Virus genome (UHGV): UHGV-0153635
Reading direction: 5' to 3' (one strand)
Length of the DNA stretch: 44,021 bases
Origin: a virus
Shown one piece after another: positions 2,128 to 43,406 of the stretch. Each line of letters opens with the position of its first letter. The stretch's first letter is position 1. The notes under the pieces are model-generated. The model had not been told where the DNA came from, did no database searches, and was given only the letters and a program-made list of their open reading frames with translations. The translations under genes were made by a program, and so were the position numbers.

Positions 2128-2253
2128 TTTGTGCTTCCTTCTTCAATAAGTTTCATTGCCCGGCCCCAGGCTGACTCAGCGCTGAAGCCGTTAGCGAGTA
2201 GGTACTGCATGTACTGGTACGCAATGCTCTGGATAGTCATACCGTGCAACCTC

Positions 2254-2414
2254 TAAAGTGCTGTGATAAGTGTATTAGGGTAGCTGGCGCGTAAGCCCTG
2301 CCACGTTGCTGAGAAATAAAAATAAGCCTGGTGGCGAATCTTACGACGGTCCATATCCGGGTACAGCTTAGTGAGGGATTTTGTAATCTTGCTTAAGCGT
2401 TGTTGCTTTGTCAT
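2254..2414 (-). CDS. hypothetical small basic protein (~53 aa)
   Basis: Manual translation; ATG at 2414..2412 lies 9 nt downstream of the AGAGG inside the conserved 12-mer AGAGGTTGCACG. Confidence 0.3.
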
Positions 2415-2438
2415 GTCGTGCAACCTCTGTTTAGTTAG

Positions 2439-4634: not shown

Positions 4635-4901
4635 TTACTTTAAGGCATTATGCATAGCAGCGCTAGGTACACAATACCGATCAAGAAACTCTGCTGCATC
4701 CGGATAAACCTCCCTGTACTTAAGCTGATTAAACTCTACATAGAACTCAACCAGCCCTAACCCAAGCAAGTGCATCCGCTTAGGCTTACCCAACCCCTCC
4801 CATAGCTGCAAGGATGTATCGTAAGCCGGATAGGAGCCTGCTTGCTTATGCATATAGTCGTAGATGCCCAGTAACCCTTTCTTCAATGCTACAGCATTCA
4901 T
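4635..4901 (-). CDS. hypothetical protein (88 aa)
   Basis: ORF track; ATG 4901 preceded by GAGGA within a duplicated upstream element. Confidence 0.55.
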   Translation of the reverse strand: MNAVALKKGLLGIYDYMHKQAGSYPAYDTSLQLWEGLGKPKRMHLLGLGLVEFYVEFNQLKYREVYPDAAEFLDRYCVPSAAMHNALK

Positions 4902-4903
4902 TT

Positions 4904-4955
4904 AAATGTCCTCAAATTAATTACCTATAGTATATAGCGTAGCGCCTATACGCTA
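4904..4955 (-). repeat. copy 1 of a duplicated ~45-bp upstream element (second copy 5555..5604)
   Basis: Shared core AAATGTCCTCAAATTAATTACC plus TATAG..AGCGTAGCG..TATA with hairpin potential, read on the plus strand in both copies. Confidence 0.5.
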
Positions 4956-5534
4956 AAACGGAAACTCTGAGTCGTCAAAGTGCACTAGCACTGTATCAGC
5001 AGTAGCTACAACCCCCGGTACAGTTCGCATAGCCTCAGCACGTTCCTGCTCTTGCAGTATAGAACGTATCGACATAACCTCAACCAGATACTGCAAGCCC
5101 CGCTCAGCCCTGCTAACAGCCCTCTCCGCACAGTACAGGAAATCCTCCCAGGCAACCGGGCAGTAACGCAGCTTCAGGCTCATAAGGTCCTGTACAGCGC
5201 TCAGGAGCATACCTCTCTGCACTGCATCTAGTCCCTGTATTACATCTATCCGGCTGTACAACTCCCTCTGCTTATCCTGTATAGCAGCAGCATCCAGAGC
5301 CTGCACTGTACCAATTAGCATAGGCTGTAACCCCCTGAGTCTGTCCAGTACTGGATTATCAGAATCCGCTAGCTCAACAGGCATTCCTAAGTGCCAGACC
5401 CTGGCTGTACCGGCATCACTACGAGGCTTATGCTGCTTCCTGGCTGGAGCAGGAACCTCACAGCCTAACTCCGTGTCCCAGTAGTAGTTCTGCTTCTTAC
5501 CGTCTACCCGGCGCTGCTTACGCAGTATCGTCAT
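4953..5534 (-). CDS. hypothetical protein (193 aa); leftmost gene in phage orientation
   Basis: ORF track; ATG 5534 with GAGGAGGG RBS. Confidence 0.55.
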   Translation of the reverse strand: MTILRKQRRVDGKKQNYYWDTELGCEVPAPARKQHKPRSDAGTARVWHLGMPVELADSDNPVLDRLRGLQPMLIGTVQALDAAAIQDKQRELYSRIDVIQGLDAVQRGMLLSAVQDLMSLKLRYCPVAWEDFLYCAERAVSRAERGLQYLVEVMSIRSILQEQERAEAMRTVPGVVATADTVLVHFDDSEFPF

Positions 5535-5632: not shown

Positions 5633-5661
5633 ACTATAGCACTCTGTACCTTAACGTGCAA
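5633..5661 (-). promoter_or_regulatory. sigma70-type promoter candidate (TTGCAC - 17 bp - TATAGT) overlapping one copy of the conserved 12-mer
   Basis: Minus strand reads TTGCACgttaaggtacagagtgcTATAGT about 100 bp upstream of ATG 5534. Confidence 0.35.
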
Positions 5662-5689
5662 CCTCTGTAGTTAAAGCTGTGGCTAATCC

Positions 5690-24818: not shown

Positions 24819-25298
24819 TTATTTAAGAGTATGAGGCGATGCCGCCTCGTGATATTTAGCCTTAGCTGTTAGGTAGGCAGCTCTAGCGGCTTCGGGGGTC
24901 TTGAAATACCCAAAGTACACCAGCTTGCCATGACGCTTTAGACTTACCTTATAACGCCGCTCTGCGGGTATGTAGGTGTATCCCAAGTGTCGGCGGTTCT
25001 GCATGTTTTCGTAAGCGGTTACTAGTCGCAAGTTCTCTACGCGGTTGTTGAGTTTATCCCCGTCTATATGGTCAATCACCATACCATCCGGCACAGGGCC
25101 GTGGTGCAGGCACCAGACCACAATATGAGCCATTGTTGATAATTTACCACGACTTCCACGGTTCCAGCTAGCGCGTCTGTACCCGAAAGAGTTTACCTCT
25201 GTGTCCCCATAACGTCCCGTGCGCTTACTTCTAATACGCCCGGTTGACTGCTCGTATGAATACCTATCAAAGAACTCTACAGGTAGGTCCCTATACAT
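24819..25298 (-). CDS. HNH homing endonuclease (paralog family member 2)
   Basis: VIDHIDGDKLNNRVENLR...ENMQN; ATG 25298 overlaps scaffold stop. Confidence 0.8.
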   Translation of the reverse strand: MYRDLPVEFFDRYSYEQSTGRIRSKRTGRYGDTEVNSFGYRRASWNRGSRGKLSTMAHIVVWCLHHGPVPDGMVIDHIDGDKLNNRVENLRLVTAYENMQNRRHLGYTYIPAERRYKVSLKRHGKLVYFGYFKTPEAARAAYLTAKAKYHEAASPHTLK

Positions 25299-26167: not shown

Positions 26168-27733
26168 TTATGCGATTAAGCCCAGTTGCTGAGCCGCTTG
26201 ATTAGGGTCTGCTGCCTGAAGAGCCTGTTGTTGCTGCTGCGCTGCTTGAGCTGCTCGCGTATCCTCCTGCTCCTGCAACTGCTTCAACTGCTCTTCCGTG
26301 TAGAAGAACTTGCTGCTGTTGATACCGAAGCTATCAAACACCGTATCAATCAAGGCATCCACGTTAGTACGCTTAGTGTACGTTTGTAGCACAGGTACAA
26401 TCAACTGCAAGGACTGCGTAGCTTCCAGTAGGCGGTCATTCTGCGCTGCTTTAGCGAGGGCTGCTGTACCCACCACGACATTCAGTGTCATAGCTTGCAG
26501 GTCCAACAGCGGCTGCATCTGCGGGTACAGCTCCAGACAGTACAGGTACGCCAGCTTAGTAAGCCATACGCTGCTTAGCTGACTGTACGCATCCCCCAGA
26601 GCCTCCTGTGCCTCCTGAGCATTCTGACGAATCTCATACGCCGTAACACGCTCTGCATCCCTGGTGTTGCCTCCGTACATAAACGCGCGGGCAAGACGTT
26701 GCTCAATGCTGGCAATCTCAGCCTGCATGACCTGAATCTTCTGGTAGACGCCGCCCTCATAGGCCCATATACCGGGGCCAGTAGTACCAGCCGGGGCATT
26801 AGTCTGGATGATGTCCCCTACCGCAGCTTCGTTGAATGCGTCGATATCTACACCGGATGCAGAGTTAGACATGTTCACAAAGCGCATAGCTTCAACTTCG
26901 TACAGCGTCAGGGCTTTACTCAGCTCAGATAATCTAGCGAACTCACCCGCGTAGTCCTCAACCAGCCCACGCCCGTAATGCTCAGAGTTAACGCGGTTCC
27001 AGACCAGTACCGTGTACGGGCACTGTTTCTCCGGATAGTAGCTAGGCTCGCCAACAGGTTTATTATCAACCTCCTGGTACACCTTGTAGACTACTGCACC
27101 GCCTTCTCGCACCTCACGGCATACGCCTGTATAGAGTTCCAGGTCCTCGTAATCTGCCTTGTTGTCGTACTGGATACGGTACTCATCGGGTAAATCCCCA
27201 ACGCAGATACGCTCCTTCAGGACAATCAGCATTACATCGCCAGAGCCATTACGCTTAACCGCGTAATCTCGGATGCTGTAGATATGAGAGCGCTGACGCT
27301 GCTTATCCCGGTACTCCAGGGCATTCCCTGTAACCATCAGCAGCTTCGTAGCGTGCAGCTTCGCAGCGTACTCTTCGTCTTTGTAGACCTGTGCCGACGC
27401 AGCCAGCTCAATCTCTGCCTGTACACTCGGTACTTCGCCCTGGATACCCAGCTCACCAACTACACCAGCCAGCTCATCGCTGTCTACGAAGCGGAAGAAC
27501 GGTGCTCCTTGAGGGAACAGCGATTTAACCACCTTGGTACTAGCGGTGTTAATCAGGATAGCTCCGAGGCTCTGGTAGTCCCGGTGCAGCGCCGAGCGCT
27601 TGCCGTCCATACCGGACAGGTCGCGCGTGAACACTGTGGGCAAAGACCACTCCGCGAATTTTTCAGCAGCTGTAAGGCATGAACTATCTTGCAGCTTAGC
27701 AAACAGCCCCGCTAGAGGCTCTTTAGGTTTCAT
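26168..27733 (-). CDS. portal (head-tail connector) protein (T7 gp8-like)
   Basis: ATG 27733 with GGAGG RBS (track GTG 27739 rejected); ATG overlaps the HNH stop as ATGA. Confidence 0.8.
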   Translation of the reverse strand: MKPKEPLAGLFAKLQDSSCLTAAEKFAEWSLPTVFTRDLSGMDGKRSALHRDYQSLGAILINTASTKVVKSLFPQGAPFFRFVDSDELAGVVGELGIQGEVPSVQAEIELAASAQVYKDEEYAAKLHATKLLMVTGNALEYRDKQRQRSHIYSIRDYAVKRNGSGDVMLIVLKERICVGDLPDEYRIQYDNKADYEDLELYTGVCREVREGGAVVYKVYQEVDNKPVGEPSYYPEKQCPYTVLVWNRVNSEHYGRGLVEDYAGEFARLSELSKALTLYEVEAMRFVNMSNSASGVDIDAFNEAAVGDIIQTNAPAGTTGPGIWAYEGGVYQKIQVMQAEIASIEQRLARAFMYGGNTRDAERVTAYEIRQNAQEAQEALGDAYSQLSSVWLTKLAYLYCLELYPQMQPLLDLQAMTLNVVVGTAALAKAAQNDRLLEATQSLQLIVPVLQTYTKRTNVDALIDTVFDSFGINSSKFFYTEEQLKQLQEQEDTRAAQAAQQQQQALQAADPNQAAQQLGLIA

Positions 27734-28182
27734 ACCCACGCCTCCACTGGACAGTTAGTATGTTTAGCAGCCTTAGCACGCATATAAGCTGCGCGAGCAT
27801 CTAGGATTGTACTGAAAGACCCTAGATGCTCAACCCCGTAATTGGTCCCTATGGCTGCGCAGAATGAGTAGCCGTTCCAGAAGAATCCTTTGCGCTTAGC
27901 ATTCTGAGCATTCTCTGCACGGGTAGCCGCACGTAAGTTAGATGGGGAGTTATTGGTTCGGCAGCGGTCTATGTGGTCTACCAGCTCAGGCCAATACCCG
28001 TGCGTTAGGTAGAACACTACGCGGTGTGCTTTGTAGGACACCCCTTTAATCTCGCCACAGTAGTAACCGTCCACTACTGTTTTCAGAGCAGGTTCACCAA
28101 CCTTGCACCGAGGACGTGCCACCTTCCAGGATAGCCCTGTAGGGCTGCTTGGGTCAATCTGCACTAGGTCTTGAATCTGCAT
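27730..28182 (-). CDS. HNH homing endonuclease (paralog family member 3)
   Basis: LVDHIDRCRTNNSPSNLR...AENAQN; ATG 28182 with AAGGAG RBS. Confidence 0.8.
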   Translation of the reverse strand: MQIQDLVQIDPSSPTGLSWKVARPRCKVGEPALKTVVDGYYCGEIKGVSYKAHRVVFYLTHGYWPELVDHIDRCRTNNSPSNLRAATRAENAQNAKRKGFFWNGYSFCAAIGTNYGVEHLGSFSTILDARAAYMRAKAAKHTNCPVEAWV

Positions 28183-28191
28183 CTTAGCTCC

Positions 28192-28455
28192 TTAAATGCC
28201 GAGCGCTGTGGATACCGCCCCCGCACGACGCTTTTTCTGTGACGCAGTGATATCGCTAGCCGAAGCCTGCGCTGCACCGCCTGAGTCTACTGTATTGATA
28301 TTCTCTGCCGAGGTATCAGCGTCTAACTGCGCTTGCGCTGCAAGCTGCTTCTGCTGCTCCTCGTACTGGCGCTGTTGCGCCTCCAGCGATTTTGTATCCG
28401 TCAACCCTACCATATCAGTGATAGAGCTTAAACCTTTCTTGAGAGAGTTGCTCAT
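28192..28455 (-). CDS. hypothetical small protein upstream of portal, Gln/Ala-rich
   Basis: ATG 28455 with AAGGGG RBS, ATGA overlap with upstream stop. Confidence 0.5.
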   Translation of the reverse strand: MSNSLKKGLSSITDMVGLTDTKSLEAQQRQYEEQQKQLAAQAQLDADTSAENINTVDSGGAAQASASDITASQKKRRAGAVSTALGI

Positions 28456-28877
28456 AGTCTCCACCCCTTCTGGATGTAAGTAGTATTATTAATTGCGCGG
28501 GATGTGATTAACCAATCCGCACCGTTCTCTTTAGCAATCCTGCGCATGTTCCTAACAAGGGTGCCGACTGCCGCTGGATGCCCCGGCTCTACTACCAAGA
28601 ACCAAGAGAGCATAACCTTGCCCGGATAATGAGAATCCTCTTTTAGTACAGGGTATAATGTAACTGCCCCCACTGGGGTATCCCCACTAAACACCACCAG
28701 CATAGAGTCTCCTTGGGCCTCTCGTACTACCCTCTGGAAGTGTTCCTCTAACTCTATACCTAGCTTTAAACCCGGACCATAGATATGAAGTTGTTTAATA
28801 ATACTAATTATATAATCACTAGAGTTACTCCAGTTATAGAGTCTAGTATTATACAGTGCTTTCTTTGTTTGGCTCAT
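28452..28877 (-). CDS. hypothetical protein (141 aa) in an AT-rich islet; weak acetyltransferase-like impression only
   Basis: ORF track; visibly lower GC than flanks; conserved 12-mer about 25 nt upstream of the ATG. Confidence 0.5.
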   Translation of the reverse strand: MSQTKKALYNTRLYNWSNSSDYIISIIKQLHIYGPGLKLGIELEEHFQRVVREAQGDSMLVVFSGDTPVGAVTLYPVLKEDSHYPGKVMLSWFLVVEPGHPAAVGTLVRNMRRIAKENGADWLITSRAINNTTYIQKGWRL

Positions 28878-28918
28878 GCTTCTCTTGCCCCTTGTTCTAT
28901 ACGTGCAACCTCTAATGG

Positions 28919-29287
28919 TTAGGATTTGTCCTGCTGCATCAGAAAAGCTATCATCCCTGCTCTTAAATGGTTAGTATCCTGTACTAGCACGTAATCTCCA
29001 TCTCCGTAAGGTGCTCTGGCTGTGTAGCAAACCCGTCCGCCTGAAGCCCCATCAGGACCGTAGTGTACTGTAATCTCTATACGGTTACGGTTTAGGATAC
29101 GCCATGCATCTGCTGGGTTGTTGCAGTAGTCCCGTGAGAAGCCGCCGTACCCATTGTCCATATAGACAACTGAGGAGTTCTGCGGGAAGGTTTTATTGTT
29201 GCATTCTGGTGATTTATTAATATCTGGCCAGAAAACATCGCTCACTCTTTTATTGATTTCAAAATCTGATAACTGTGAATAGTCCAT
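28919..29287 (-). CDS. hypothetical protein (~122 aa) in an AT-rich islet
   Basis: ATG 29287 with GAGAGG RBS, 10 nt after the RNAP stop; track start 29323 would overlap RNAP. Confidence 0.5.
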   Translation of the reverse strand: MDYSQLSDFEINKRVSDVFWPDINKSPECNNKTFPQNSSVVYMDNGYGGFSRDYCNNPADAWRILNRNRIEITVHYGPDGASGGRVCYTARAPYGDGDYVLVQDTNHLRAGMIAFLMQQDKS

Positions 29288-29297
29288 ATTATACCTC

Positions 29298-31739
29298 TCA
29301 ACAAAAGAAGAATGGGGATTCAAGTACTTGCGTTAAGTCCAGAGTGCCTTTCTGAGGCATCTCTAAACCTTCCAGGTCTGCGCCGCACTCTACCGCTGCG
29401 TCAGCCAGCGTTTGCAACGGGTCGTGCTCGGTGTACAAGCGCAGGAACTGCTCACGAATAGCTTTATGCATTGCGTCAACATCACAGGCATGCGTAGCCA
29501 GCGAGTCATGGATAGGCAGGATATCACCGTCGAAGGCGTTCAGTACCATCATCAGGTGCGTACTATCCAGCGAGTGCACGAAGTTCGGAGCGATACCAGA
29601 CTTAGCCTTACGGCGATTGTTCTGCTCGTAGTTACGGTTGTAACTGAGCAGGTACGTCAGGTTCATACTCTGAACTTTAACCCGGCACTCATCAGACTCT
29701 GTGTAGCGGTTAATGACCAACCCACCCAGCGGAGTCTTCCACTGTAAGTGCCGCTTAGTCGGGACACGTCCTGTAATCTGCTGAGCAAAGCGCATAGCCT
29801 TGGCAGCCGCAGGGTTAGCCTCCTCTACAGCAGCGCGCATACGCGGAGCTAAGTACCCTGCGAGCTTAAACAGGCTATACTCCTCAGTAGGCTCATAACC
29901 CTCATCCTTAGCACCCAGTAGGATGTACTCAGAGCAACTGCGTACAGTCGCAGAATACACATAGGTCATACAGGGGCGCTTGGTCATACTCCTAGTAATT
30001 GGGTTCTCTCTCCAGTACGTAGCCTGCACTACGTGCTCTGGGTCAGTGAGGTCCATGATTACCTTGGAGTCCGTGCGCTCCTTCACGTCCATGTACATAT
30101 CCGCTTTCTCTGCGTTACCCTCCCAGAACAGGTTCGTTAAGCGCCCACCGATTGGGTCCCGGAGCATTGCGCTGTAGTGCTGAGAACCCGAGTTTGTAGC
30201 GTCCATAGCGACTGGTACGTGCGATACATACTCTCGCGGCTCCACAGAGCTAAGAGCATTAACAAGCTCGACTGCTGCTGCCAGGAAGCACCATGGACTA
30301 TCTGCCTGTTTAAAAGCGTCCGAATTAAATGGGTCATCTGCCAGGCGTCTAATCGCTTCATAGTTCGCATCAGCCCAAGCTGCACGGGCTTCGAATAGGG
30401 CTTTGTCATAACCAAAGCAAGTGGCGACATGCACCTTGAGCCAAAATAATCCACGCTCCCCAAGCGGTTTTCCGCGACCAAATTCAAGCAAGGCCTTCTG
30501 CAAATCAGAACCTTGTGGGTGCAGGCTGGACTTGAAGTACAGGCGGTATCGCCAATCCACACAAGTCGGGAAGTACAGCTCTGTTTCATCTTTGAACTCC
30601 TCGCACATACTTACGGTTGTAACCAGGGCGCGAAGCTGCCCTACGCGAGTACGCTCATCCGCGTACCACTGGCGCATATGCATCTTCCACTCCTGGAACT
30701 CCTCAAGCTCACGCTCAGTGTACTCTTCCTTAGGCACACCATCCAAGCGCCACTCTGGTTTAGGGGCTGGGTTGCTGCTAGGCATGCCTGTGCTTACTCC
30801 CAAGGCACGCGCCTGCTGCACCAGCTTCAGCATAGTCTTATTAATACGGTACGGCACTTCCTGAGCACGATTCAGAGCCTGCTGTAACTGCGGAGCCTGC
30901 TTGAACGCCTCGGCTACTTCACGCTTCATGCTTCGCTGAATCTGTGAGTTGCTGTAAGTACCGCGTCTATCAATGTCCGTGAGGTATCCACCGGAGAACA
31001 TCGTATCATGCGGCTGCGGCGGGATAAGCATAGGTGGCTTCAGCTGCACTGTATCGGCGTGCTCTACCAGCTCAGACAGTACCTGCTCCAGCGCTGGGGC
31101 TGGGGTGAGATACTGCAACTGCGTCTTATCGCGCTTGCTCCACACGAACAGCCCGGTTTCCCACACCGCCTGCATCAAGAGCTTGCCCACGGAGATGCAC
31201 TGTGAGTTCGACCAAGGCTCATGCTGGTAATGCACGTTCTCAGCAGAGGCACGCAAGGTCTTCAGGATATGCGAGGGGCTGGTGGTATTACGTTCCTTCA
31301 GGTACTCATGCACCCGGTTCATATATGCCGGGGCTACAGCCTGGAGCTGCACAGCCAGTAGCTCCGCCTGAACCTGACGGCCCAGCGCAGAGAGCACGGA
31401 CTGTGCTGAGCTGGCACTGTTAGTGCCTACGTTAGAGAATAGCGAATCGAAGCACTTCGTCAAGGACATTACGGCCAGGACATCCGTAGGGATTAAGCGC
31501 AGGAACGCGCGGTACTTAGCGCCTACACCAGCAGTCTTCTCCTGCTTAGTGCTGTTGATGCCTGCGCATACAGTGTCGTATGCAGCCGCAATCATACGCT
31601 GCACTGGCGGCAAGGTGCTGAGGCTACCAGAGTCCAGGGCTTTCTGCACCAGGCTCTTGCTGCGCTCCAGGCTGCGTGTACGGTACTGCTGCTCTAGCTG
31701 GAGCTGTCGCTCTGTGCGTTCTTCTAAGGTTTCTTTCAA
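29298..31739 (-). CDS. single-subunit DNA-directed RNA polymerase (T7 RNAP family)
   Basis: 813 aa; SGSQHYSAMLRD, IAPNFVHSLDSTH, C-terminal ESPFFFC align with T7 RNAP motifs; TTG start with GAGGA RBS. Confidence 0.95.
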   Translation of the reverse strand: MKETLEERTERQLQLEQQYRTRSLERSKSLVQKALDSGSLSTLPPVQRMIAAAYDTVCAGINSTKQEKTAGVGAKYRAFLRLIPTDVLAVMSLTKCFDSLFSNVGTNSASSAQSVLSALGRQVQAELLAVQLQAVAPAYMNRVHEYLKERNTTSPSHILKTLRASAENVHYQHEPWSNSQCISVGKLLMQAVWETGLFVWSKRDKTQLQYLTPAPALEQVLSELVEHADTVQLKPPMLIPPQPHDTMFSGGYLTDIDRRGTYSNSQIQRSMKREVAEAFKQAPQLQQALNRAQEVPYRINKTMLKLVQQARALGVSTGMPSSNPAPKPEWRLDGVPKEEYTERELEEFQEWKMHMRQWYADERTRVGQLRALVTTVSMCEEFKDETELYFPTCVDWRYRLYFKSSLHPQGSDLQKALLEFGRGKPLGERGLFWLKVHVATCFGYDKALFEARAAWADANYEAIRRLADDPFNSDAFKQADSPWCFLAAAVELVNALSSVEPREYVSHVPVAMDATNSGSQHYSAMLRDPIGGRLTNLFWEGNAEKADMYMDVKERTDSKVIMDLTDPEHVVQATYWRENPITRSMTKRPCMTYVYSATVRSCSEYILLGAKDEGYEPTEEYSLFKLAGYLAPRMRAAVEEANPAAAKAMRFAQQITGRVPTKRHLQWKTPLGGLVINRYTESDECRVKVQSMNLTYLLSYNRNYEQNNRRKAKSGIAPNFVHSLDSTHLMMVLNAFDGDILPIHDSLATHACDVDAMHKAIREQFLRLYTEHDPLQTLADAAVECGADLEGLEMPQKGTLDLTQVLESPFFFC

Positions 31740-38655: not shown

Positions 38656-41029
38656 AGTACTCCTCAACGCTAGGTGTGTGTGTTTTGCTGTACATGCTCG
38701 GACCATGCTCTGCTGCCGCAGGGAATGGTACTTGCGAGATGATGCCGTAGTTAGGCCACAGTGCAGCGATGCGACGCGGCGCTTCCTCCATGCATTCCTT
38801 GACCAAGTTACCAGCTAGCACGGCAGTTTCCTCATCAGCACTGTCCAGATACAGGGCGTCGTGTACGTTAGTAATCAGGCACACCTTACCACCAAACCAA
38901 TCCTTAGCAATCAGATTACGCAGCACTTGCCCAGCGGCGATTGCCATGAGAAAGAACGCTTCTGATTGGCACCAGTAGTTAGCTAGCTCTGTGCCTTTGT
39001 AATCCATCACCTGCACTTTCCTTCCGCCGCCCTCGGGAACCTGCCACTGAAGTTTCTGCCTGAATGACAGGCGTGTACCCGCTGGGCTGGTCCAGTACCC
39101 TCGGCGATACAAACGCCACTGCCCATCCTCGCACTGCTCACGCAGCACAGGTTCCAGCATCCCGGTGCGCTCAACCTCGGCGCGTACTACATCACGGAAG
39201 CCAATGGTTGTAGGGAACAGCTTAGCCTCGTTATCCAGGAAGCTCTGCGCGTACTCCACGGTACAGCCTGTAGCAAACGCAATCCCCTTGGCTGTAGCGC
39301 CATATTGCGCTGCGAAGCTCGGGGGCTTGATGTCTGTACGCTGCTGCTTCCAGTACTTGTAGTCCGGTCCATCCTGGTTATGGCAGAGCTGGTACATCTC
39401 CTCGTAGCTCTTGCCTTCCTTGAAGGCTAGGCGGTAGCAGTGCATGTCCGTGTCTTTCTGGAGTAGCTCAAGTAGTTTAAGGTCTCCTGTATGAACACAG
39501 GACATAACCACTTCCAGGGCCGAGTAGTCAACTTCAGTGATACGACCAGACTCTCCGAAACGAGAGGTGAACATCTGTTTAACCCGACTTGTCCCATCGC
39601 GCGGTAGATTCTGGAGGTTCGGATTGGACGCTGAAAGACGCCCTGTGACGGTACTGCATGTATTAAGACGGTGGTGGATAATACCTGAACCATCAGGGTT
39701 CTCAGGTATGACGTACTGAAGCATGCCCGAGGTCTTCTTAACTGAGCCATCTTTATTGTACTCCGTGCGAAGGTAGTAAGTTCCCGTGTCTTTCTCCAGC
39801 GCAGCCAGCTCATTCACTAACTTAGCGAACTCGAAGCCCTGCGCAGCCAGGCCGTTCATTGCATCACCGCTGGTGCTGTACACTGGGGAACCGTCAGGCA
39901 GTACCTGAGCACCTCTGAACTCCCCGCGCTCACTGTACTTCTCCTGTAAATGCTGCGGTAGCTCCTGAATGTTCACGATGCCGGGGAAGTTGTAGATGCC
40001 CTTGCCCCACTTCAGCTTCTCCTTGTCAGAGTCTACCCGGAATACCTTGGGCATACCCTTGTTCTTACCCGCAGCGTAAGTTACATAGTTATGATTACCA
40101 CTAACATCAGTTTCTGCGCACGGTACGTAAGTACTGTCGCTGCCCCGCACCAAGTACGCATCATACTTCTCGTACTGCGGCGGGTCATACGGAACCTTCA
40201 TGTCATAGCGAATAGGTCCGCCATACACCAGCGCAGACATATGATAGTTGCTACCGTAGTTGAACTCGAACTCTTCCGGCAGGTCCTTAGGCAGGTACTG
40301 CTGCAACTGCTGACGCAGCTCCTGAATGCGCTGCTCCTGCTCAGCTTGGTTCCGCTGCGCTACAGGCATGTTTACGTAAAGGCCGAAGAACTCACAGTAC
40401 GCCCAAGCCAGCATAGCATCCATACGCTCCCAGACCATCTGCATTTGCCCGCGCTCTGCGAAGATACTGCACTGTCCGTAGAAGCACAGGGCCGTATTTG
40501 GCACGTCACCATTCACCAAGTAATCCCTCAGTAGAATGGGGTCTATCTCTGAGGTTAAAGCGCCTTGTTCCCACAGTAACTTAACCCCATCAATCTTATG
40601 CTCACCGCCGTACTTAGGTGCGGTTTCGTCTAGAGAGGGGTACAGGTCCTGAAAGTCACTAGCAATATAATGTCCATGCATCGTGTCAAATACTCGGCCC
40701 CCGCGCTTCAAGAACTCCTCGAAGTGCTGACGCTGATAGGTCAGGAACCAGCTAATCTCGAACGCCGCGTTATGCGCTACAAGGAGCCAACAATCGCTGG
40801 GTATACGGAACCACAGATGCTCCCCGGCTACATCATCCAAGAACTCCTGCTTGCTGTTGAAGCGAATGTCAAAGGTCGGCTCTACAGTAACCGTACCATC
40901 ATCATGGGCCCTGTCGATGCGGTAGGCTGAGTGCACTACGTAGTTGTCAGGGCAATAAGGACTAGCCTTGCTGCCGTAGTACGGGTGATTCTCGACCTCA
41001 AGGTCAATCGTCATAATGCTACTAGTCAT
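38633..41029 (-). CDS. DNA polymerase, family A with 3'-5' exonuclease domain (T7 gp5-like)
   Basis: 798 aa; N-terminal exo motif TIDLEVEN; ATG 41029 one nt after the HNH stop. Confidence 0.9.
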   Translation of the reverse strand: MTSSIMTIDLEVENHPYYGSKASPYCPDNYVVHSAYRIDRAHDDGTVTVEPTFDIRFNSKQEFLDDVAGEHLWFRIPSDCWLLVAHNAAFEISWFLTYQRQHFEEFLKRGGRVFDTMHGHYIASDFQDLYPSLDETAPKYGGEHKIDGVKLLWEQGALTSEIDPILLRDYLVNGDVPNTALCFYGQCSIFAERGQMQMVWERMDAMLAWAYCEFFGLYVNMPVAQRNQAEQEQRIQELRQQLQQYLPKDLPEEFEFNYGSNYHMSALVYGGPIRYDMKVPYDPPQYEKYDAYLVRGSDSTYVPCAETDVSGNHNYVTYAAGKNKGMPKVFRVDSDKEKLKWGKGIYNFPGIVNIQELPQHLQEKYSERGEFRGAQVLPDGSPVYSTSGDAMNGLAAQGFEFAKLVNELAALEKDTGTYYLRTEYNKDGSVKKTSGMLQYVIPENPDGSGIIHHRLNTCSTVTGRLSASNPNLQNLPRDGTSRVKQMFTSRFGESGRITEVDYSALEVVMSCVHTGDLKLLELLQKDTDMHCYRLAFKEGKSYEEMYQLCHNQDGPDYKYWKQQRTDIKPPSFAAQYGATAKGIAFATGCTVEYAQSFLDNEAKLFPTTIGFRDVVRAEVERTGMLEPVLREQCEDGQWRLYRRGYWTSPAGTRLSFRQKLQWQVPEGGGRKVQVMDYKGTELANYWCQSEAFFLMAIAAGQVLRNLIAKDWFGGKVCLITNVHDALYLDSADEETAVLAGNLVKECMEEAPRRIAALWPNYGIISQVPFPAAAEHGPSMYSKTHTPSVEEYYASSHSV

Positions 41030-41030
41030 A

Positions 41031-41519
41031 TTATAGTCCGTGATTATTGTGGTACCCGGCTGCTTCAGCCGCCAACCTCCGGCACTCTATGGCTTGCTCG
41101 ATATTACCGAAGGACCCTAACTGTTTATTTCCAATAGTTGCTATCCAACGATTACCTTTCTTGTATACCCCGACGTAACCGCTGCGATTGCTTTTGTATA
41201 AAGACTTGTTCTGCATGTTTTGCTCTGGTAGCACTGCTCTTAAATTATCTGGAGTATCATCTAACCTATTATGGTTTATGTGGTCTACATGATAACCTGC
41301 CCGCAGCGGCCCATTATGCATCTCATATACTATCAAACTTCTCTTATATAACTTGTTGTGTAGCTTAATGTACCAGTACCCGCACACCTTGTTTAAGGTG
41401 CCCGCTTCGGAACCTGCTGCACAATTTAGACGGCTACGCCCGCGTCCGCTGCGAACTTCATGCTTCCAATAAAGCTTGCCATCTCTGTATGTAAACCAAG
41501 TACCCCAATTCATTTCCAC
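41031..41519 (-). CDS. HNH homing endonuclease (paralog family member 4), AT-rich
   Basis: HVDHINHNRLDDTPDNLR...EQNMQN; visibly lower GC than the flanking polymerase and helicase genes. Confidence 0.8.
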   Translation of the reverse strand: MEMNWGTWFTYRDGKLYWKHEVRSGRGRSRLNCAAGSEAGTLNKVCGYWYIKLHNKLYKRSLIVYEMHNGPLRAGYHVDHINHNRLDDTPDNLRAVLPEQNMQNKSLYKSNRSGYVGVYKKGNRWIATIGNKQLGSFGNIEQAIECRRLAAEAAGYHNNHGL

Positions 41520-41672
41520 TTAGCCCTCCGAGCCTTGTTAATCGCCAGGTGCACTATGAGCTGGCTTGACTCTAGCGCGTAGCTTTTACGGGAAGTACGT
41601 GCAGATGCAGCGTAGGCCTTAATGACCTCGTAGTCCCGGTCAGTGACGTCTTCTTTAGTCAGCATGTTACTC

Positions 41673-41846
41673 ACCTATATTCATAGGCACAGTGTGCACA
41701 GCTACGAACATATCGAAAGCTCCGCGCATGTAAGGTTTCTGGTATATGCCCTCTACCTGAACAAAACTATCTTCAACATTATCAAAATGTTTTGCTACAT
41801 AACCTTCAAAGGCTGCTTTTAATGCCTCATACTCTGCTCGTGTCAT
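41673..41846 (-). CDS. hypothetical small protein (58 aa)
   Basis: Manual translation; ATG 41846 with GAGGTTAGT upstream; AT-rich. Confidence 0.3.
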
Positions 41847-41925
41847 ACTAACCTCTACACTCTATATAATAGGGGATAATTGAGACAACCAACACGCCAG
41901 CCTCTGCTGGAAGCTGGCTTAGTAG

Positions 41926-42132
41926 TTACTCTACTACGAAGTAGATAGCTTGCATTCGCTCAAGGTCGTCGGTGTGTGCGTCCCCTGTATCGAAGTACTC
42001 ATTGCTATTCTCATCGTAAGCCAGAATCTCTCCGCCAACGTCGTGGAAGGAGGTGCTCCACACTTGCCCGGCGTGCTCCCATACCGCTACAAAGTTTCCT
42101 GACTCTGGACGAGTTTTTACTTGCTTAATCAT
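41926..42132 (-). CDS. hypothetical protein (68 aa)
   Basis: ORF track; ATG overlaps helicase stop. Confidence 0.45.
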   Translation of the reverse strand: MIKQVKTRPESGNFVAVWEHAGQVWSTSFHDVGGEILAYDENSNEYFDTGDAHTDDLERMQAIYFVVE

Positions 42133-43406
42133 GCTAATTTCCCCGCGTTGAACTGGCAGCGTCCACCATCGAACTCTACCTGGAATTGTAAGTAGCTCTG
42201 ACTACCGGACTTGCCGAGCTTGTTCTTTGGCGTGCTAATGCCGCGAACATCCAGCATATCCGGCCTTGTGCTGGGGTCTAACCTGCCCATCATGATGCAC
42301 AGGTCCAGCGCGCCCTGTACACCAATCTTGCTCTGCTTCATCGCTGTCAGCGGTGGGTACAGCATATCGTAACCTTCGACTGATAGCTGCATAGTGCCTA
42401 TGATGATGCAGTCGTACTCGCAGCCCAGTACTCGCAGCTCCTGCCATTTCGCTTCCAGCCCCTGGTGCTCTGACTCTGCTGTACCGCCCCGGATATTCGC
42501 AACCATATCCACAACCAGCACAGCCGGGCGCATCTCCTCCATCAATGTAGCTATCTGAGGCATAGTGATGCTGTGCGCATCCTTAACTCTGATGCGGTCC
42601 CAGCTACCTACCTTAGCCAGGTACTTCTCTGCGAACTTACCTTGCTTATGCTGCTCTACAATCTCATGCAATGTCAGCCCTGTAGCTGCCTGGTAGATAC
42701 GCGGTACAGTACGCTTAGCTAAGCTTTCATTGACGAGCCATAGTACAGGGCGGTCAGCATAGCTTTCCTCTTTTCGTGCCATCTGCTCGACCAGGCCCAC
42801 GACAGTTGCAGCCAGTAAAGAGGTTTTCCCTGCATCGACGGGTGCCGCAACAGCAACACAGTCCCCACCGCGGAGACCACGGATATTGTCAGCAAGCTCA
42901 GGAAATACATTAAGTTTAAGGCCGCCGCTTTCATCAGTAGCCGCAAGTATATCATCTACACCCCCATCTTCCCAGTTCAACAAAGAGTCCTGCGCTGTCG
43001 CTACGCTGCTGTACTTGCGCTCTAACTGCTTGGCCTCTGCGATAAAGTCTATCTCTGCACCATCCTGGTACTGCTGCACCAGCGCCGCCATCTCGCCGGA
43101 GTAGGCCATCTCATTCAGAGTACGCACTACCCCGGCTGCTGCCTCGTCTGGAACCTGCTGCACTTGCTTGAGCATGTGCTTCAGAATATCCATCTGCTCT
43201 TTCTGTAGATGCTGCCCGCGCATCCCCAGGAGCGTCTGCATAGCGTCCCACTGCACAGCGTTGCTGTCGGTGTAGGTTCCGTAGTACAGGTCCACCCAGC
43301 CCAGCAGCGCTACTGTATCTACAGCCAGCATGGACTTCGGTATCTGCTCTCGCAAGCGTTGCCAGACCTTGCGTTCACACATCGCCTTTACGATTAAGTA
43401 ATCCAA
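42129..43406 (-). CDS. replicative DNA helicase (DnaB/T7 gp4 helicase-domain family)
   Basis: Walker A APVDAGKTS; 425 aa; TTG start with AAGGAG RBS. Confidence 0.85.
   Translation of the reverse strand: MDYLIVKAMCERKVWQRLREQIPKSMLAVDTVALLGWVDLYYGTYTDSNAVQWDAMQTLLGMRGQHLQKEQMDILKHMLKQVQQVPDEAAAGVVRTLNEMAYSGEMAALVQQYQDGAEIDFIAEAKQLERKYSSVATAQDSLLNWEDGGVDDILAATDESGGLKLNVFPELADNIRGLRGGDCVAVAAPVDAGKTSLLAATVVGLVEQMARKEESYADRPVLWLVNESLAKRTVPRIYQAATGLTLHEIVEQHKQGKFAEKYLAKVGSWDRIRVKDAHSITMPQIATLMEEMRPAVLVVDMVANIRGGTAESEHQGLEAKWQELRVLGCEYDCIIIGTMQLSVEGYDMLYPPLTAMKQSKIGVQGALDLCIMMGRLDPSTRPDMLDVRGISTPKNKLGKSGSQSYLQFQVEFDGGRCQFNAGKLA

What the first reader, a model, noticed from the sequence alone, without database searches (positions are those of the whole stretch)
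28452..29287. AT-rich two-gene islet between RNAP and the portal-proximal genes
Both ORFs (141 aa and ~122 aa) are visibly more AT-rich than the flanking RNAP and structural genes (qualitative, not computed), and a copy of the conserved 12-mer precedes the 141-aa gene. This looks like an accessory or moron insertion; the 141-aa protein gave only a weak acetyltransferase-like impression by eye.
Basis: partly seen in the sequence, partly recalled or inferred. Interest (0 to 1): 0.45.

Follow-up and report, generated by a model that had tools for sequence, protein, structure and literature searches.

The report
NinX accessory gene beside Rac-like acetyltransferase gene
The AT-rich stretch is real, but it is not one inserted islet: it holds an optional NinX-family gene sitting in a variable slot after the phage RNA polymerase gene, then the late promoter, then a conserved core gene for an acetyltransferase-fold protein related to the host-takeover protein Rac of Pseudomonas phage LUZ19 and to T7 gene 7, so it is mostly ordinary phage genome mosaicism.

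Summary
The window is a Koutsourovirus-like (Autographiviridae, Slopekvirinae) phage genome with its genes on the minus strand.

**Observation confirmed**
- 28452-29287 has 44.9% GC against 52.0% for the window. This is the lowest 0.3% of equal-sized windows.
- The two genes have the 3rd and 6th lowest GC3 of 56 genes.
- The 12-mer AGAGGTTGCACG occurs four times exactly, always on the coding strand. One copy lies 24 nt upstream of the 141-aa gene.

**Interpretation only partly right**
- The 122-aa ORF is a NinX/DUF2591 protein. It sits in a slot between the RNAP stop codon and the late promoter. In relatives this slot is empty, non-coding, or holds DUF3850 or HNH genes.
- The 141-aa gene is not an insert. 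It is syntenic in every relative and found in 279 phage records.
  - It has a confident GNAT fold.
  - It is homologous to LUZ19 Gp28 "Rac" (hhalign 96%, E 2e-9) and more weakly to T7 gene 7.
  - It is translationally coupled to the small virion protein gene.
- The Rac-like gene is AT-rich in all Koutsourovirus relatives examined, and NinX homologues are AT-rich in unrelated phages. Low GC is therefore not evidence of recent joint acquisition.
- A near-identical metagenomic genome carries the same NinX but a 66%-identical allele of the 141-aa gene. The two genes therefore assort independently.

Its function here is inferred, not shown.

The parts
29298..31739 (-). Single-subunit phage RNA polymerase gene (context; last conserved gene of the middle region)
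   Evidence: 813-aa ORF. It is 94-98% identical to Koutsourovirus RNAPs. Orthologues in L008/L011 carry Pfam RPOL_N and RNA_pol.
28919..29287 (-). NinX-family (PF10765/DUF2591) accessory gene, 122 aa, filling the variable slot between the RNAP stop codon and the late promoter
   Evidence: Pfam PF10765 E 6.7e-14, 52.6 bits against a 22.6-bit cut-off, full length; phrog_444. It starts 10 nt after the RNAP stop. The slot is empty, non-coding or holds other genes in relatives. The AF2 model has pLDDT 89.6.
28897..28913 (-). Probable phage-RNAP (T7-type) late promoter: 12-mer AGAGGTTGCACG (28913-28902) followed by TATAG, with a predicted start at G 28897
   Evidence: Four exact same-strand copies in the window. 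It is conserved at this position in relatives. It occupies the same position as the in vitro validated EM1 promoter upstream of the N-acetyltransferase gene (PMC9596486) and the annotated LIMElight phage promoter.
28452..28877 (-). Rac-like / T7 gp7-like degenerate GNAT-fold protein, 141 aa; first gene of the late operon
   Evidence: phrog_5167 E 1e-43; phrog_3986 (Rac) 5.4e-4; phrog_2746 (T7 gp7) 7.6e-3. AF2 pLDDT 92.9 with a GNAT fold. hhalign against Rac gives 96.2%, E 2.3e-9. T7 gene 7 is the only hit in the T7 genome.
28192..28455 (-). Small virion structural protein (LUZ19 gp29 family), 87 aa from the ATG at 28455, which overlaps the stop codon of the 141-aa gene (ATGA)
   Evidence: phrog_3112 E 5.9e-23, the same PHROG as LUZ19 gp29. 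The ATGA overlap was read from the sequence. The orthologues start at the equivalent position.
28200..28810 (.). Recombinant block: a divergent allele of the 141-aa gene plus the moderately divergent virion protein gene, inside an otherwise ~100% identical backbone
   Evidence: Sliding identity to L012 is 0.98-1.00 outside the block, 0.34-0.68 between 28800 and 28450, and 0.76-0.94 between 28450 and 28200.
27730..28182 (-). HNH homing endonuclease between the virion protein gene and the portal gene (optional; absent from L011)
   Evidence: Pfam HNH_3 E 6.7e-15; phrog_99. Presence and absence are seen.
26168..27739 (-). Portal (head-tail connector) gene (context)
   Evidence: 523-aa ORF. Orthologues carry PF12236 Head-tail_con.
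5655..5666 (-). Second copy of the 12-mer, 121 nt upstream of the 193-aa gene 4953-5534
2417..2428 (-). Third copy of the 12-mer, directly before a 53-aa ORF (ATG at 2414)
2243..2254 (-). Fourth copy of the 12-mer, directly before a 38-aa ORF (ATG at 2240)

Best explanation
The stretch is the junction between the middle and late regions of a phiKMV-type phage genome. It holds three independent elements rather than one inserted islet.

1. A NinX/DUF2591 accessory gene sits in a recombination-prone slot just after the RNAP stop codon. It has its own Shine-Dalgarno sequence but no promoter, so it is presumably read through from the RNAP transcript (inferred). Its molecular function is unknown. 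The model has a dsRBD-like alpha-beta-beta-beta-alpha core.

2. A T7-type phage-RNAP promoter, made of the 12-mer plus TATAG, starts the late operon. This is inferred from conservation and from the orthologous, experimentally active EM1 promoter.

3. The first late gene encodes a 141-aa GNAT-fold protein homologous to LUZ19 Gp28 'Rac' and to T7 gp7. It is translationally coupled (ATGA overlap) to the small virion protein gene. I think it most likely acts as Rac does. That would make it a host-directed modifier, produced when the phage polymerase takes over, which alters host proteins such as the transcription machinery by acetylation or by binding. This step is inferred and is uncertain, because the acetyl-CoA pocket residues of Rac are mostly replaced.

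Low GC characterises the Rac-like gene across the Koutsourovirus relatives examined and NinX homologues in unrelated phages. In this genome, the 141-aa gene, together with part of the virion protein gene, is a divergent allele exchanged by homologous recombination.

The confidence given (0.7) is for the identities and the evolutionary picture. The Rac-like host-directed mechanism on its own is about 0.35.
For: Taxonomy and synteny.

NinX:
- Family membership.
- The slot is variable: empty in SDFMU_Pec and EhYP (55-56 nt), DUF3850 in KKP 3828, HNH in Entb_48 and Peggy, and 386 nt of non-coding DNA in phiKDA1.
- NinX sits in the same slot in other metagenomic Koutsourovirus contigs, at 99% and 61% identity.
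- Its nearest relatives lie in unrelated phages and are also AT-rich.

Promoter.

GNAT fold: pLDDT 92.9. Foldseek against the PDB gives 140 hits at E<=1e-3; all 50 listed are GNAT-type acetyltransferases.

Rac homology:
- hhalign probability 96.2%, E 2.3e-9.
- Rac is phrog_3986, which the window protein and 15 of 30 family members match.
- The gene order is identical: vRNAP, slot, GNAT, overlapping gp29-type virion protein, portal.

T7 gp7 link:
- Gene 7 is the only significant hit of the family profile among 421 T7 six-frame ORFs (E 1.3e-4).
- Predicted structures of gp7-family 'host specificity protein A' rank among the top viral hits.
- One sequence, P0182, matches all three PHROGs.

Conserved AT-richness.

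Allele swap and independent assortment.
Against: - No Pfam GNAT model matches the 141-aa protein at E<=1.
- The Q/R-x-x-G-x-G/A motif is degenerate (H-P-A-A-V-G), and the model lacks helix alpha4.
- Only 1-2 of the five Rac acetyl-CoA pocket residues (QYV...VR) are kept, depending on the alignment.
- The Rac paper shows that the LKA1 homologue does not cause alpha-subunit cleavage, so the activity is not a family-wide property (PMC7552054).
- The T7 gp7 link is statistically weak in direct comparison (hhalign probability 3%).
- The transcription start is not mapped. Two of the four 12-mer copies lie immediately before ATG codons, which fits a ribosome-binding context as well as a promoter.
- No experimental function is recorded for NinX in the papers searched.
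Confidence: 0.7

Rival explanations
1. One reading: both genes form one recently acquired AT-rich accessory or moron islet.
For: Both genes are adjacent and similarly AT-rich. NinX is indeed optional.
Against: The 141-aa gene is present at the same position in every relative and in 279 phage records. It is AT-rich in all Koutsouroviruses. L012 shares the NinX gene at 99-100% but has a different 141-aa allele, and the divergent block begins inside the 141-aa gene rather than at the slot. A conserved promoter separates the two genes.
Confidence: 0.04
2. The 141-aa protein is a virion infectivity or assembly factor in the sense of the T7 gene 7 'host range and adsorption' annotation. It would act on the translationally coupled small virion protein, for example as a chaperone or by modifying its Lys/Arg-rich tail, rather than on host proteins.
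For: The ATGA coupling to the virion protein gene is conserved. The recombinant block spans both genes. The gene order 141 aa, small protein, HNH, portal matches T7 genes 7, 7.3, 7.7, 8. The C-terminus SQKKRRAGAVSTALGI resembles GRKKARAGG...GGINI of gp7.3. Structural hits to 'host specificity protein A' models support the gp7 link.
Against: The only experimentally studied homologue, Rac, acts on the host when expressed alone (PMC7552054). An HMM of the small virion protein does not detect T7 gp7.3. The virion protein part of the block is only mildly divergent. I found no paper describing the mechanism of T7 gp7.
Confidence: 0.25
3. The 141-aa protein is a catalytically dead GNAT-fold scaffold that works purely by binding a host or phage partner.
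For: The cofactor motif is degenerate, helix alpha4 is missing and there is no Pfam GNAT hit. The family-wide conserved feature is a D-x-H loop between strands beta3 and beta4, not the CoA site.
Against: GNATs bind CoA mainly through backbone amides, so sequence motifs are poor predictors (established knowledge). Rac needs its pocket residues. Several family members retain G and R at the pocket positions.
Confidence: 0.25
4. The low GC is a by-product of amino-acid composition or sampling noise in short genes.
For: The genes are short. GC1 and GC2 are also somewhat low.
Against: GC3 is 0.44-0.46 against 0.56 genome-wide. The same deficit recurs in orthologues of six relatives and in NinX genes of five unrelated phages.
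Confidence: 0.03

Closest known systems
[quoted passage not shown] 2020, PMC7552054)
   Same: It is homologous (hhalign 96%, E 2e-9). It has the GNAT fold. It occupies the same position downstream of the phage RNAP and overlaps the first structural gene, a gp29-type virion protein of the same PHROG. The D-x-H loop is conserved.
   Different: Rac is 157 aa, matches Pfam Acetyltransf_1 and carries the QYV...VR acetyl-CoA pocket. The window protein is 141 aa, matches no Pfam GNAT model and keeps only 1-2 of those five residues. The host is an enterobacterium rather than Pseudomonas. Alpha-subunit cleavage is known to be genus-specific (LKA1 is negative).
T7 gene 7 protein ('host range', 'host specificity protein A'; phrog_2746)
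   Same: It has a similar size (133 aa) and shares the D-x-H...V-x-P...D-W pattern. It is the only T7 ORF hit by the family profile. Predicted structures of gp7-family proteins are among the best viral structural matches. The neighbourhood is the same: small ejected or virion protein, HNH, portal.
   Different: Direct sequence similarity is marginal (window protein against phrog_2746, E 0.0076). In T7 the gene lies far from the RNAP gene. The mechanism of gp7 is not described in the papers I could search.
P22 NinX / DUF2591 (PF10765)
   Same: The match is full length and above the gathering score, and the conserved N-terminal and DYCNNPxDAWP motifs are present.
   Different: NinX is classically found in the nin region of temperate lambdoid phages. 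Here it lies in a virulent T7-supergroup phage, directly after the RNAP gene.
EM1 phage ORF45 promoter (TCAGAAGTCACACTATAA), PMC9596486
   Same: The genomic position is the same, between the RNAP gene and the putative N-acetyltransferase gene. The architecture is the same, with a ...CAC(G)TATA(G/A) 3' half. Its RNAP is 71% identical to that of phiKDA1.
   Different: The upstream specificity region differs (AGAGGTTG against CAGAAGTC). The element in the window has not been tested.

Membership tests
NinX / DUF2591 (PF10765) | Full-length match to the Pfam model above the gathering score | tested here: met
   52.6 bits against a 22.6-bit cut-off, residues 2-119 on model positions 1-114 of 114. 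All 120 listed homologues (295 at E<=1e-3) carry PF10765.
Moron (strict sense: an extra gene with its own promoter and terminator, absent from relatives) | Presence/absence polymorphism among close relatives | tested here: met
   For NinX only: it is absent from six isolate genomes and present in metagenomic relatives.
Moron (strict sense: an extra gene with its own promoter and terminator, absent from relatives) | Own promoter and terminator flanking the gene | tested here: not met
   No sigma70-like promoter or terminator-like site on the gene strand flanks NinX, and the gene starts 10 nt after the RNAP stop. This was only a consensus scan.
GNAT superfamily | GNAT fold (beta1-alpha1-alpha2-beta2-beta3-beta4-alpha3-beta5...) | tested here: met
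   The AF2 model has pLDDT 92.9. Foldseek against the PDB gives AAC(3)-Ia, AAC(2')-Ia, NatD and others, with E 4e-6 to 1e-4 and TM 0.5-0.66. Helix alpha4 is absent from the model.
GNAT superfamily | Sequence match to a Pfam GNAT model | tested here: not met
   No Pfam family matches at E<=1. The same holds for the T7, phiBO1E and LIMElight homologues, whereas Rac does match Acetyltransf_1.
GNAT superfamily | Motif A, Q/R-x-x-G-x-G/A, in the beta4-alpha3 loop | tested here: not met
   The window has H100-P-A-A-V-G105. Only the last position fits.
GNAT superfamily | Acetyl-CoA binding and acyl transfer | not testable with these tools
   This needs biochemistry.
Rac-like phage GNAT (LUZ19 Gp28, phrog_3986) | Sequence homology to Rac | tested here: met
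   hhalign of A3 against Rac gives probability 96.2%, E 2.3e-9 over 98 columns. The window protein matches phrog_3986 at E 5.4e-4.
Rac-like phage GNAT (LUZ19 Gp28, phrog_3986) | Location downstream of the vRNAP gene, with the coding sequence overlapping the first structural gene | tested here: met
   the paper text is.
Rac-like phage GNAT (LUZ19 Gp28, phrog_3986) | Acetyl-CoA pocket residues QYV...(A/V)R, required for the Rac phenotype | tested here: not met
   The equivalent residues are L/W, V/F, V/L ... V, G, depending on the alignment. One or two of the five are kept.
Rac-like phage GNAT (LUZ19 Gp28, phrog_3986) | [quoted passage not shown] | not testable with these tools
   This is experimental, and it is known to be genus-specific.
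T7 gp7 family (phrog_2746) | Profile-level homology | tested here: inconclusive
   The window protein matches phrog_2746 at E 0.0076. The family profile hits only gene 7 in the T7 genome, at E 1.3e-4. hhalign against the single T7 sequence gives only 3% probability. The bridging sequence P0182 matches all three PHROGs.
T7 gp7 family (phrog_2746) | Shared fold and gene neighbourhood | tested here: met
   BFVD 'host range' and 'host specificity protein A' models give E 1.7e-7 to 8e-7 and TM 0.63-0.70. For synteny.
T7-type single-subunit RNAP promoter | Conserved ~17-20 nt element ending in an AT-rich tract followed by an initiating purine, recurring upstream of late genes | tested here: met
   There are four same-strand copies, each followed by four mostly A/T bases and then G. 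The position is conserved in relatives.
T7-type single-subunit RNAP promoter | Transcription initiation by the phage RNAP at this site | not testable with these tools
   Only the orthologous EM1 promoter has been tested in vitro.

The most novel reading that the evidence does not exclude
Rac of phiKMV-like phages, the uncharacterised phrog_5167 proteins of KP34-like and Koutsourovirus phages, and T7 gene 7 ('host range') would form one ancient family of degenerate GNAT-fold proteins. The family would be encoded next to the small ejected virion protein and the portal across Autographiviridae. Its members would be host-directed modifiers whose targets differ by host. The allele swapping seen here (alleles only 65-75% identical on backbones that are 91-98% identical in RNAP and portal) would then be adaptation to host targets. 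That would give the long-unexplained T7 gene 7 host-range phenotype a testable biochemical basis.
Probability: 0.3. Interest if true: 0.55.

Novelty: new member of a known kind. Interest (0 to 1): 0.3.

Why it matters
Practical points:
- It corrects the annotation of a gene usually left as "hypothetical" in Koutsourovirus and Drulisvirus genomes, or misnamed holin, terminase or head-vertex protein. The gene encodes a Rac-like GNAT-fold protein.
- It places a probable late promoter.
- It identifies the RNAP-proximal slot as an insertion hot spot, which is useful for engineering these therapeutic-type phages.

Conceptual points:
- It links three separately annotated protein groups: Rac, phrog_5167 and T7 gp7.
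- It shows allele exchange at this locus between otherwise near-identical genomes. This hints that the protein faces host-specific selection.

None of this is very surprising for phage genomics.

Tried and rejected
- Sequence search of both proteins against the PDB gave nothing significant.
- Pfam and NCBIfam gave no family for the 141-aa protein.
- PADLOC gave no defence-system match.
- Rfam found nothing in 27500-30000 or in the phiKDA1 locus.
- The RNA fold of the region between NinX and the 141-aa gene is not better than shuffles (z -0.61).
- The 386-nt phiKDA1 slot element is not significantly structured (z -1.31).
- A terminator after the RNAP gene or after NinX was not found.
- Direct hhalign of the narrow family against the single T7 gp7 sequence was weak. 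It was replaced by the whole-genome profile scan and the structure search.
- An HMM of the small virion protein did not detect T7 gp7.3 or gp6.7. That equivalence therefore rests only on position and a short C-terminal motif.
- Literature searches for NinX and DUF2591 function found only genome annotations.
- Searches for the T7 gene 7 mechanism found nothing specific.
- Karlin codon-bias distance did not single out the two genes beyond their GC3.
Full report
**Context**

The window is a complete or near-complete phage genome, read as the reverse complement (genes on the minus strand). Its closest isolates are Enterobacter phages SDFMU_Pec, SDFMU_EhYP, phiKDA1 and Entb_48 and Salmonella phage KKP 3828. 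They are about 86-90% identical in nucleotides over 68-81% of a 24-kb query. Four of them are classified as Autographiviridae, Slopekvirinae, Koutsourovirus; the Entb_48 record gives no classification below 'Viruses'.

Around the finding the gene order on the gene strand is as follows:

| Coordinates | Feature |
|---|---|
| 29298-31739 | Single-subunit RNA polymerase |
| 28919-29287 | 122-aa ORF |
| 28452-28877 | 141-aa ORF |
| 28192-28455 | Small virion protein |
| 27730-28182 | HNH endonuclease |
| 26168-27739 | Portal |

Scaffold, a second HNH gene and the capsid gene follow.

**Check of the observation**

- Coordinates and ORF sizes are right.
- GC of 28452-29287 is 0.449 against 0.520 for the window. 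This is the 0.3rd percentile of all windows of the same length, and the 400-nt minimum of the whole window (0.42) lies inside the 141-aa gene.
- The deficit is visible at third codon positions: GC3 is 0.444 and 0.455 against 0.559 overall. The two genes rank 3rd and 6th lowest of 56 genes. RNAP and the portal have GC3 of 0.62 and 0.60.
- The region is not unique. 40441-42477 is equally AT-rich, and a length-sensitive codon-bias distance does not make the two genes outliers.
- The "conserved 12-mer" is AGAGGTTGCACG on the gene strand. It has four exact copies, all on the same strand, far more than chance predicts.
- The copy at 28902-28913 is followed by TATAG and then, 19 nt later, by the ATG of the 141-aa gene.

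**The 122-aa gene**

- It is a full-length NinX/DUF2591 protein (PF10765, 52.6 bits against a 22.6-bit cut-off; phrog_444).
- The true start is the ATG at 29287, 10 nt after the RNAP stop, behind a GAGAGG Shine-Dalgarno sequence. This reproduces the nearly invariant family N-terminus.
- Comparison with relatives shows that the interval between the RNAP stop and the element upstream of the 141-aa gene is a variable slot:

| Phage | Slot content |
|---|---|
| SDFMU_Pec, SDFMU_EhYP | 55-56 nt, no gene |
| KKP 3828 | 82-aa DUF3850/ASCH-like gene |
| Entb_48, Cronobacter phage Peggy | HNH endonuclease |
| phiKDA1 | 386 nt without an ORF |
| Window | NinX |

- The same NinX (99-100% identical) occupies the same slot in metagenomic contigs L011-L013. 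A 61%-identical NinX occupies it in L008/L009.
- The nearest other NinX proteins (55-68% identity) lie in unrelated phages, next to helicases, Dam, or tail genes. They are AT-rich there too (39-43% GC in loci of 45-52%).
- In the phage isolate collection the best match is only 54.5% identical (Klebsiella phage e270.1).
- NinX is therefore a genuine accessory gene drawn from the general enterobacterial phage pool. It has no promoter or terminator of its own in a consensus scan, so it is not a moron in the strict sense.
- Its AlphaFold model is confident (pLDDT 89.6).
- I found no experimental function in the literature.

**The 12-mer**

- In relatives the element upstream of the 141-aa gene is conserved. 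Its 3' half, (C)ACGTATAGAAC(A)AGGGGCAAGAGAAGCATG, is nearly invariant. The exception is Entb_48, which has GTAGGTATAG and GCAAGCAAAGC. The 5' half is either AGAGGTTG (window, KKP 3828, SDFMU_Pec, L008, L012) or GTAGAAACCA (phiKDA1, EhYP), or diverged (Entb_48).
- Its architecture, a specificity region followed by an AT-rich tract and G, is that of T7/SP6-type promoters.
- For the related EM1 phage (RNAP 71% identical to that of phiKDA1), the most active promoter in vitro is TCAGAAGTCACACTATAA. It lies upstream of ORF45, "a putative N-acetyltransferase", next to the RNAP gene ORF46 (PMC9596486). That is the orthologous place.
- LIMElight has an annotated phage promoter at the same place.
- I therefore read the 12-mer as the core of the phage-RNAP late promoter. 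The 141-aa gene is then the first late gene, and NinX sits upstream of that promoter at the tail of the RNAP transcript.
- This is inference, because no start site is mapped here. Two other copies (2243 and 2417) lie directly in front of small ORFs, so the GAGG inside the motif could also serve as a ribosome-binding site.

**The 141-aa gene**

It is not an insertion.

- A 426-nt orthologue lies at the same position in all Koutsourovirus genomes.
- tblastn finds the family in 279 phage records, mostly KP34-like Klebsiella phages and also LIMElight and Pectobacterium phages. It is annotated inconsistently as hypothetical, acetyltransferase, head morphogenesis, holin and so on.
- It belongs to phrog_5167 (E 1e-43).

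Fold:

- The AlphaFold model is confident (pLDDT 92.9). Its topology is beta1-alpha1-alpha2-beta2-beta3-beta4-alpha3-beta5-beta6.
- Foldseek against the PDB returns only GNAT acetyltransferases at the top, starting with AAC(3)-Ia at E 4e-6.

Sequence:

- No Pfam GNAT model matches, the Q/R-x-x-G-x-G/A motif is degenerate, and helix alpha4 is missing.
- The family signature is instead a D-x-H-x-P-G loop between beta3 and beta4. H83 is conserved in 28 of 30 diverse members.

**Relation to Rac**

The closest characterised relative is Rac, Gp28 of Pseudomonas phage LUZ19.

[quoted passage not shown] - The effect depends on its acetyl-CoA pocket residues, and the effect is absent for the LKA1 homologue (PMC7552054).

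Evidence for homology:

- hhalign of the diverse family alignment against Rac gives 96.2% probability and E 2.3e-9.
- Rac is phrog_3986 (E 2e-66). The window protein matches this PHROG at E 5.4e-4, and 15 of 30 family members match it.
- LUZ19 gp29, the overlapping virion protein, is in the same PHROG (3112) as the window's 87-aa protein.
- The gene order is identical.

Against functional identity:

- The Rac pocket residues QYV...VR correspond to L/W, V/F, V/L ... V, G in the window protein, so 1-2 of 5 are kept.

**Relation to T7 gene 7**

- The family also reaches T7 gene 7 ("host range"; phrog_2746).
- A profile built without T7 sequences hits gene 7 as the only significant ORF among 421 six-frame ORFs of T7 (E 1.3e-4; the next best is 0.4).
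- The intermediate sequence P0182 matches phrog_5167, phrog_3986 and phrog_2746.
- Predicted structures of gp7-family proteins ("host range protein", "host specificity protein A") are among the best viral structural matches, with E about 1e-7 and TM 0.63-0.70. They rank ahead of most generic GNATs.
- The order 141 aa, small virion protein, HNH, portal mirrors T7 genes 7, 7.3, 7.7 (HNH), 8.
- The direct single-sequence comparison is weak, so I rate this link as probable rather than proven.
- The equivalence of the 87-aa protein with gp7.3 rests only on position and a similar basic C-terminus.

**Composition and evolution**

- The Rac-like gene is AT-rich in every Koutsourovirus examined: GC 0.41-0.44 and GC3 0.38-0.44, against locus GC of 0.52-0.53 and neighbour GC3 of 0.49-0.64, with RNAP and portal at 0.60-0.64. 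This holds for a third allele (L023) and for a more distant genus (L024).
- It is mildly AT-rich in Peggy and in the Drulisvirus phiBO1E, and not at all in LIMElight.
- Low GC is thus an old, lineage-wide trait of this gene. It does not mark recent acquisition.
- What is special in this genome is the allele. The window protein is only 65-69% identical to the allele shared by all isolates. Those isolates are 93-97% identical to each other at this gene, while RNAP and the portal are 94-98% identical throughout.
- Against L012, nucleotide identity is 98-100% through the RNAP 3' end, NinX, the promoter and the first ~70 nt of the gene.
  - It drops to 34-68% from about 28800 to 28450.
  - It is 76-94% through the virion protein gene.
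  - It returns to 100% at about 28200.
- L011 carries the window allele (98%) with the same NinX, and L012 carries the common allele with the same NinX. NinX and the allele therefore assort independently.
- The real recombination unit is the Rac-like gene plus part of its translationally coupled partner, not NinX plus the Rac-like gene.

**Mechanism, with confidence**

Shown:

- identity of the families, the fold, synteny, the variable slot, the allele replacement and the conserved upstream element.

Inferred:

- The element is the late promoter (about 0.7).
- NinX is expressed by read-through from the RNAP transcript (about 0.6).
- The 141-aa protein acts as Rac does, as a host-directed modifier at the switch to phage transcription (about 0.35).
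- The alternative is a gp7-style role in particle infectivity through the coupled virion protein (about 0.25).
- A further alternative is a non-catalytic binding role (about 0.25). These options are not mutually exclusive.

**Verdict**

The "islet/moron" reading is half right. Everything found belongs to known kinds: a NinX accessory gene, a Rac-like GNAT and a T7-type promoter. Interest is modest. It lies in the probable unification of Rac, phrog_5167 and T7 gp7, and in the clean allele swap at that locus.

Noticed in passing
L002 (phiKDA1) 4700-5085 and L023 486-871: In phiKDA1 and in a metagenomic relative, the slot holds a ~386-nt ORF-free element that is nearly identical in the two. It is bounded by two promoter-like copies: AGAGGTTGCACGTATAGAAG at its 5' end and GTAGAAACCACACGTATAGAAC at its 3' end. 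There is no Rfam match, and the overall fold is not better than shuffles (z -1.31), though long local hairpins are predicted.
   Followed up: partly
window 2243-2254 and 2417-2428 (-): Two copies of the 12-mer lie 174 nt apart. Each is followed within 2 nt by the ATG of a small ORF (38 and 53 aa). The GAGG inside the motif could therefore double as a Shine-Dalgarno sequence. The motif may be a promoter, a translation signal, or both.
   Followed up: partly
window 27730-28182 (-) and 24819-25298 (-): Two HNH endonuclease genes are inserted between structural genes, one between the virion protein and the portal and one between the scaffold and the capsid. The first is absent from the otherwise near-identical contig L011 and present in L012 and L013. 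This is typical of free-standing homing endonucleases. Its position mirrors T7 gene 7.7.
   Followed up: partly
window 28452-28464: The mechanical ORF list starts the small virion protein at GTG 28464 (90 aa). The likely start is ATG 28455, which overlaps the TGA stop of the 141-aa gene (ATGA). This gives 87 aa and implies translational coupling.
   Followed up: yes
L002, L005 against the window, upstream of the 141-aa gene: Phages whose RNAPs are 94% identical carry different 5' halves of the promoter-like element (AGAGGTTGCACG against GTAGAAACCACACG). This suggests either two promoter classes or tolerance in the specificity region.
   Followed up: no
window 40441-42477: A second stretch is as AT-rich as the finding (minimum 0.425 in 400 nt). 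It includes the ORF 41031-41519 (GC 0.45) and the interval 41519-41926, where no ORF of at least 60 aa is listed on either strand.
   Followed up: no
L001 (KKP 3828) 4760-5008: The slot gene of KKP 3828 is a DUF3850/ASCH-like protein. In Erwinia phage Midgardsormr38 the tblastn match to NinX overlaps both an annotated NinX gene and a DUF3850 gene. This hints that the slot samples the same pool of nin-region-type genes.
   Followed up: no
L024 (metagenomic contig, RNAP 71% identical): In a more distant genus the Rac-like protein is 63% identical to the window's. That is about as close as the common allele within the window's own genus (66%). It suggests exchange of this gene across genus boundaries. 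In that contig an HNH gene separates it from the virion protein gene.
   Followed up: partly
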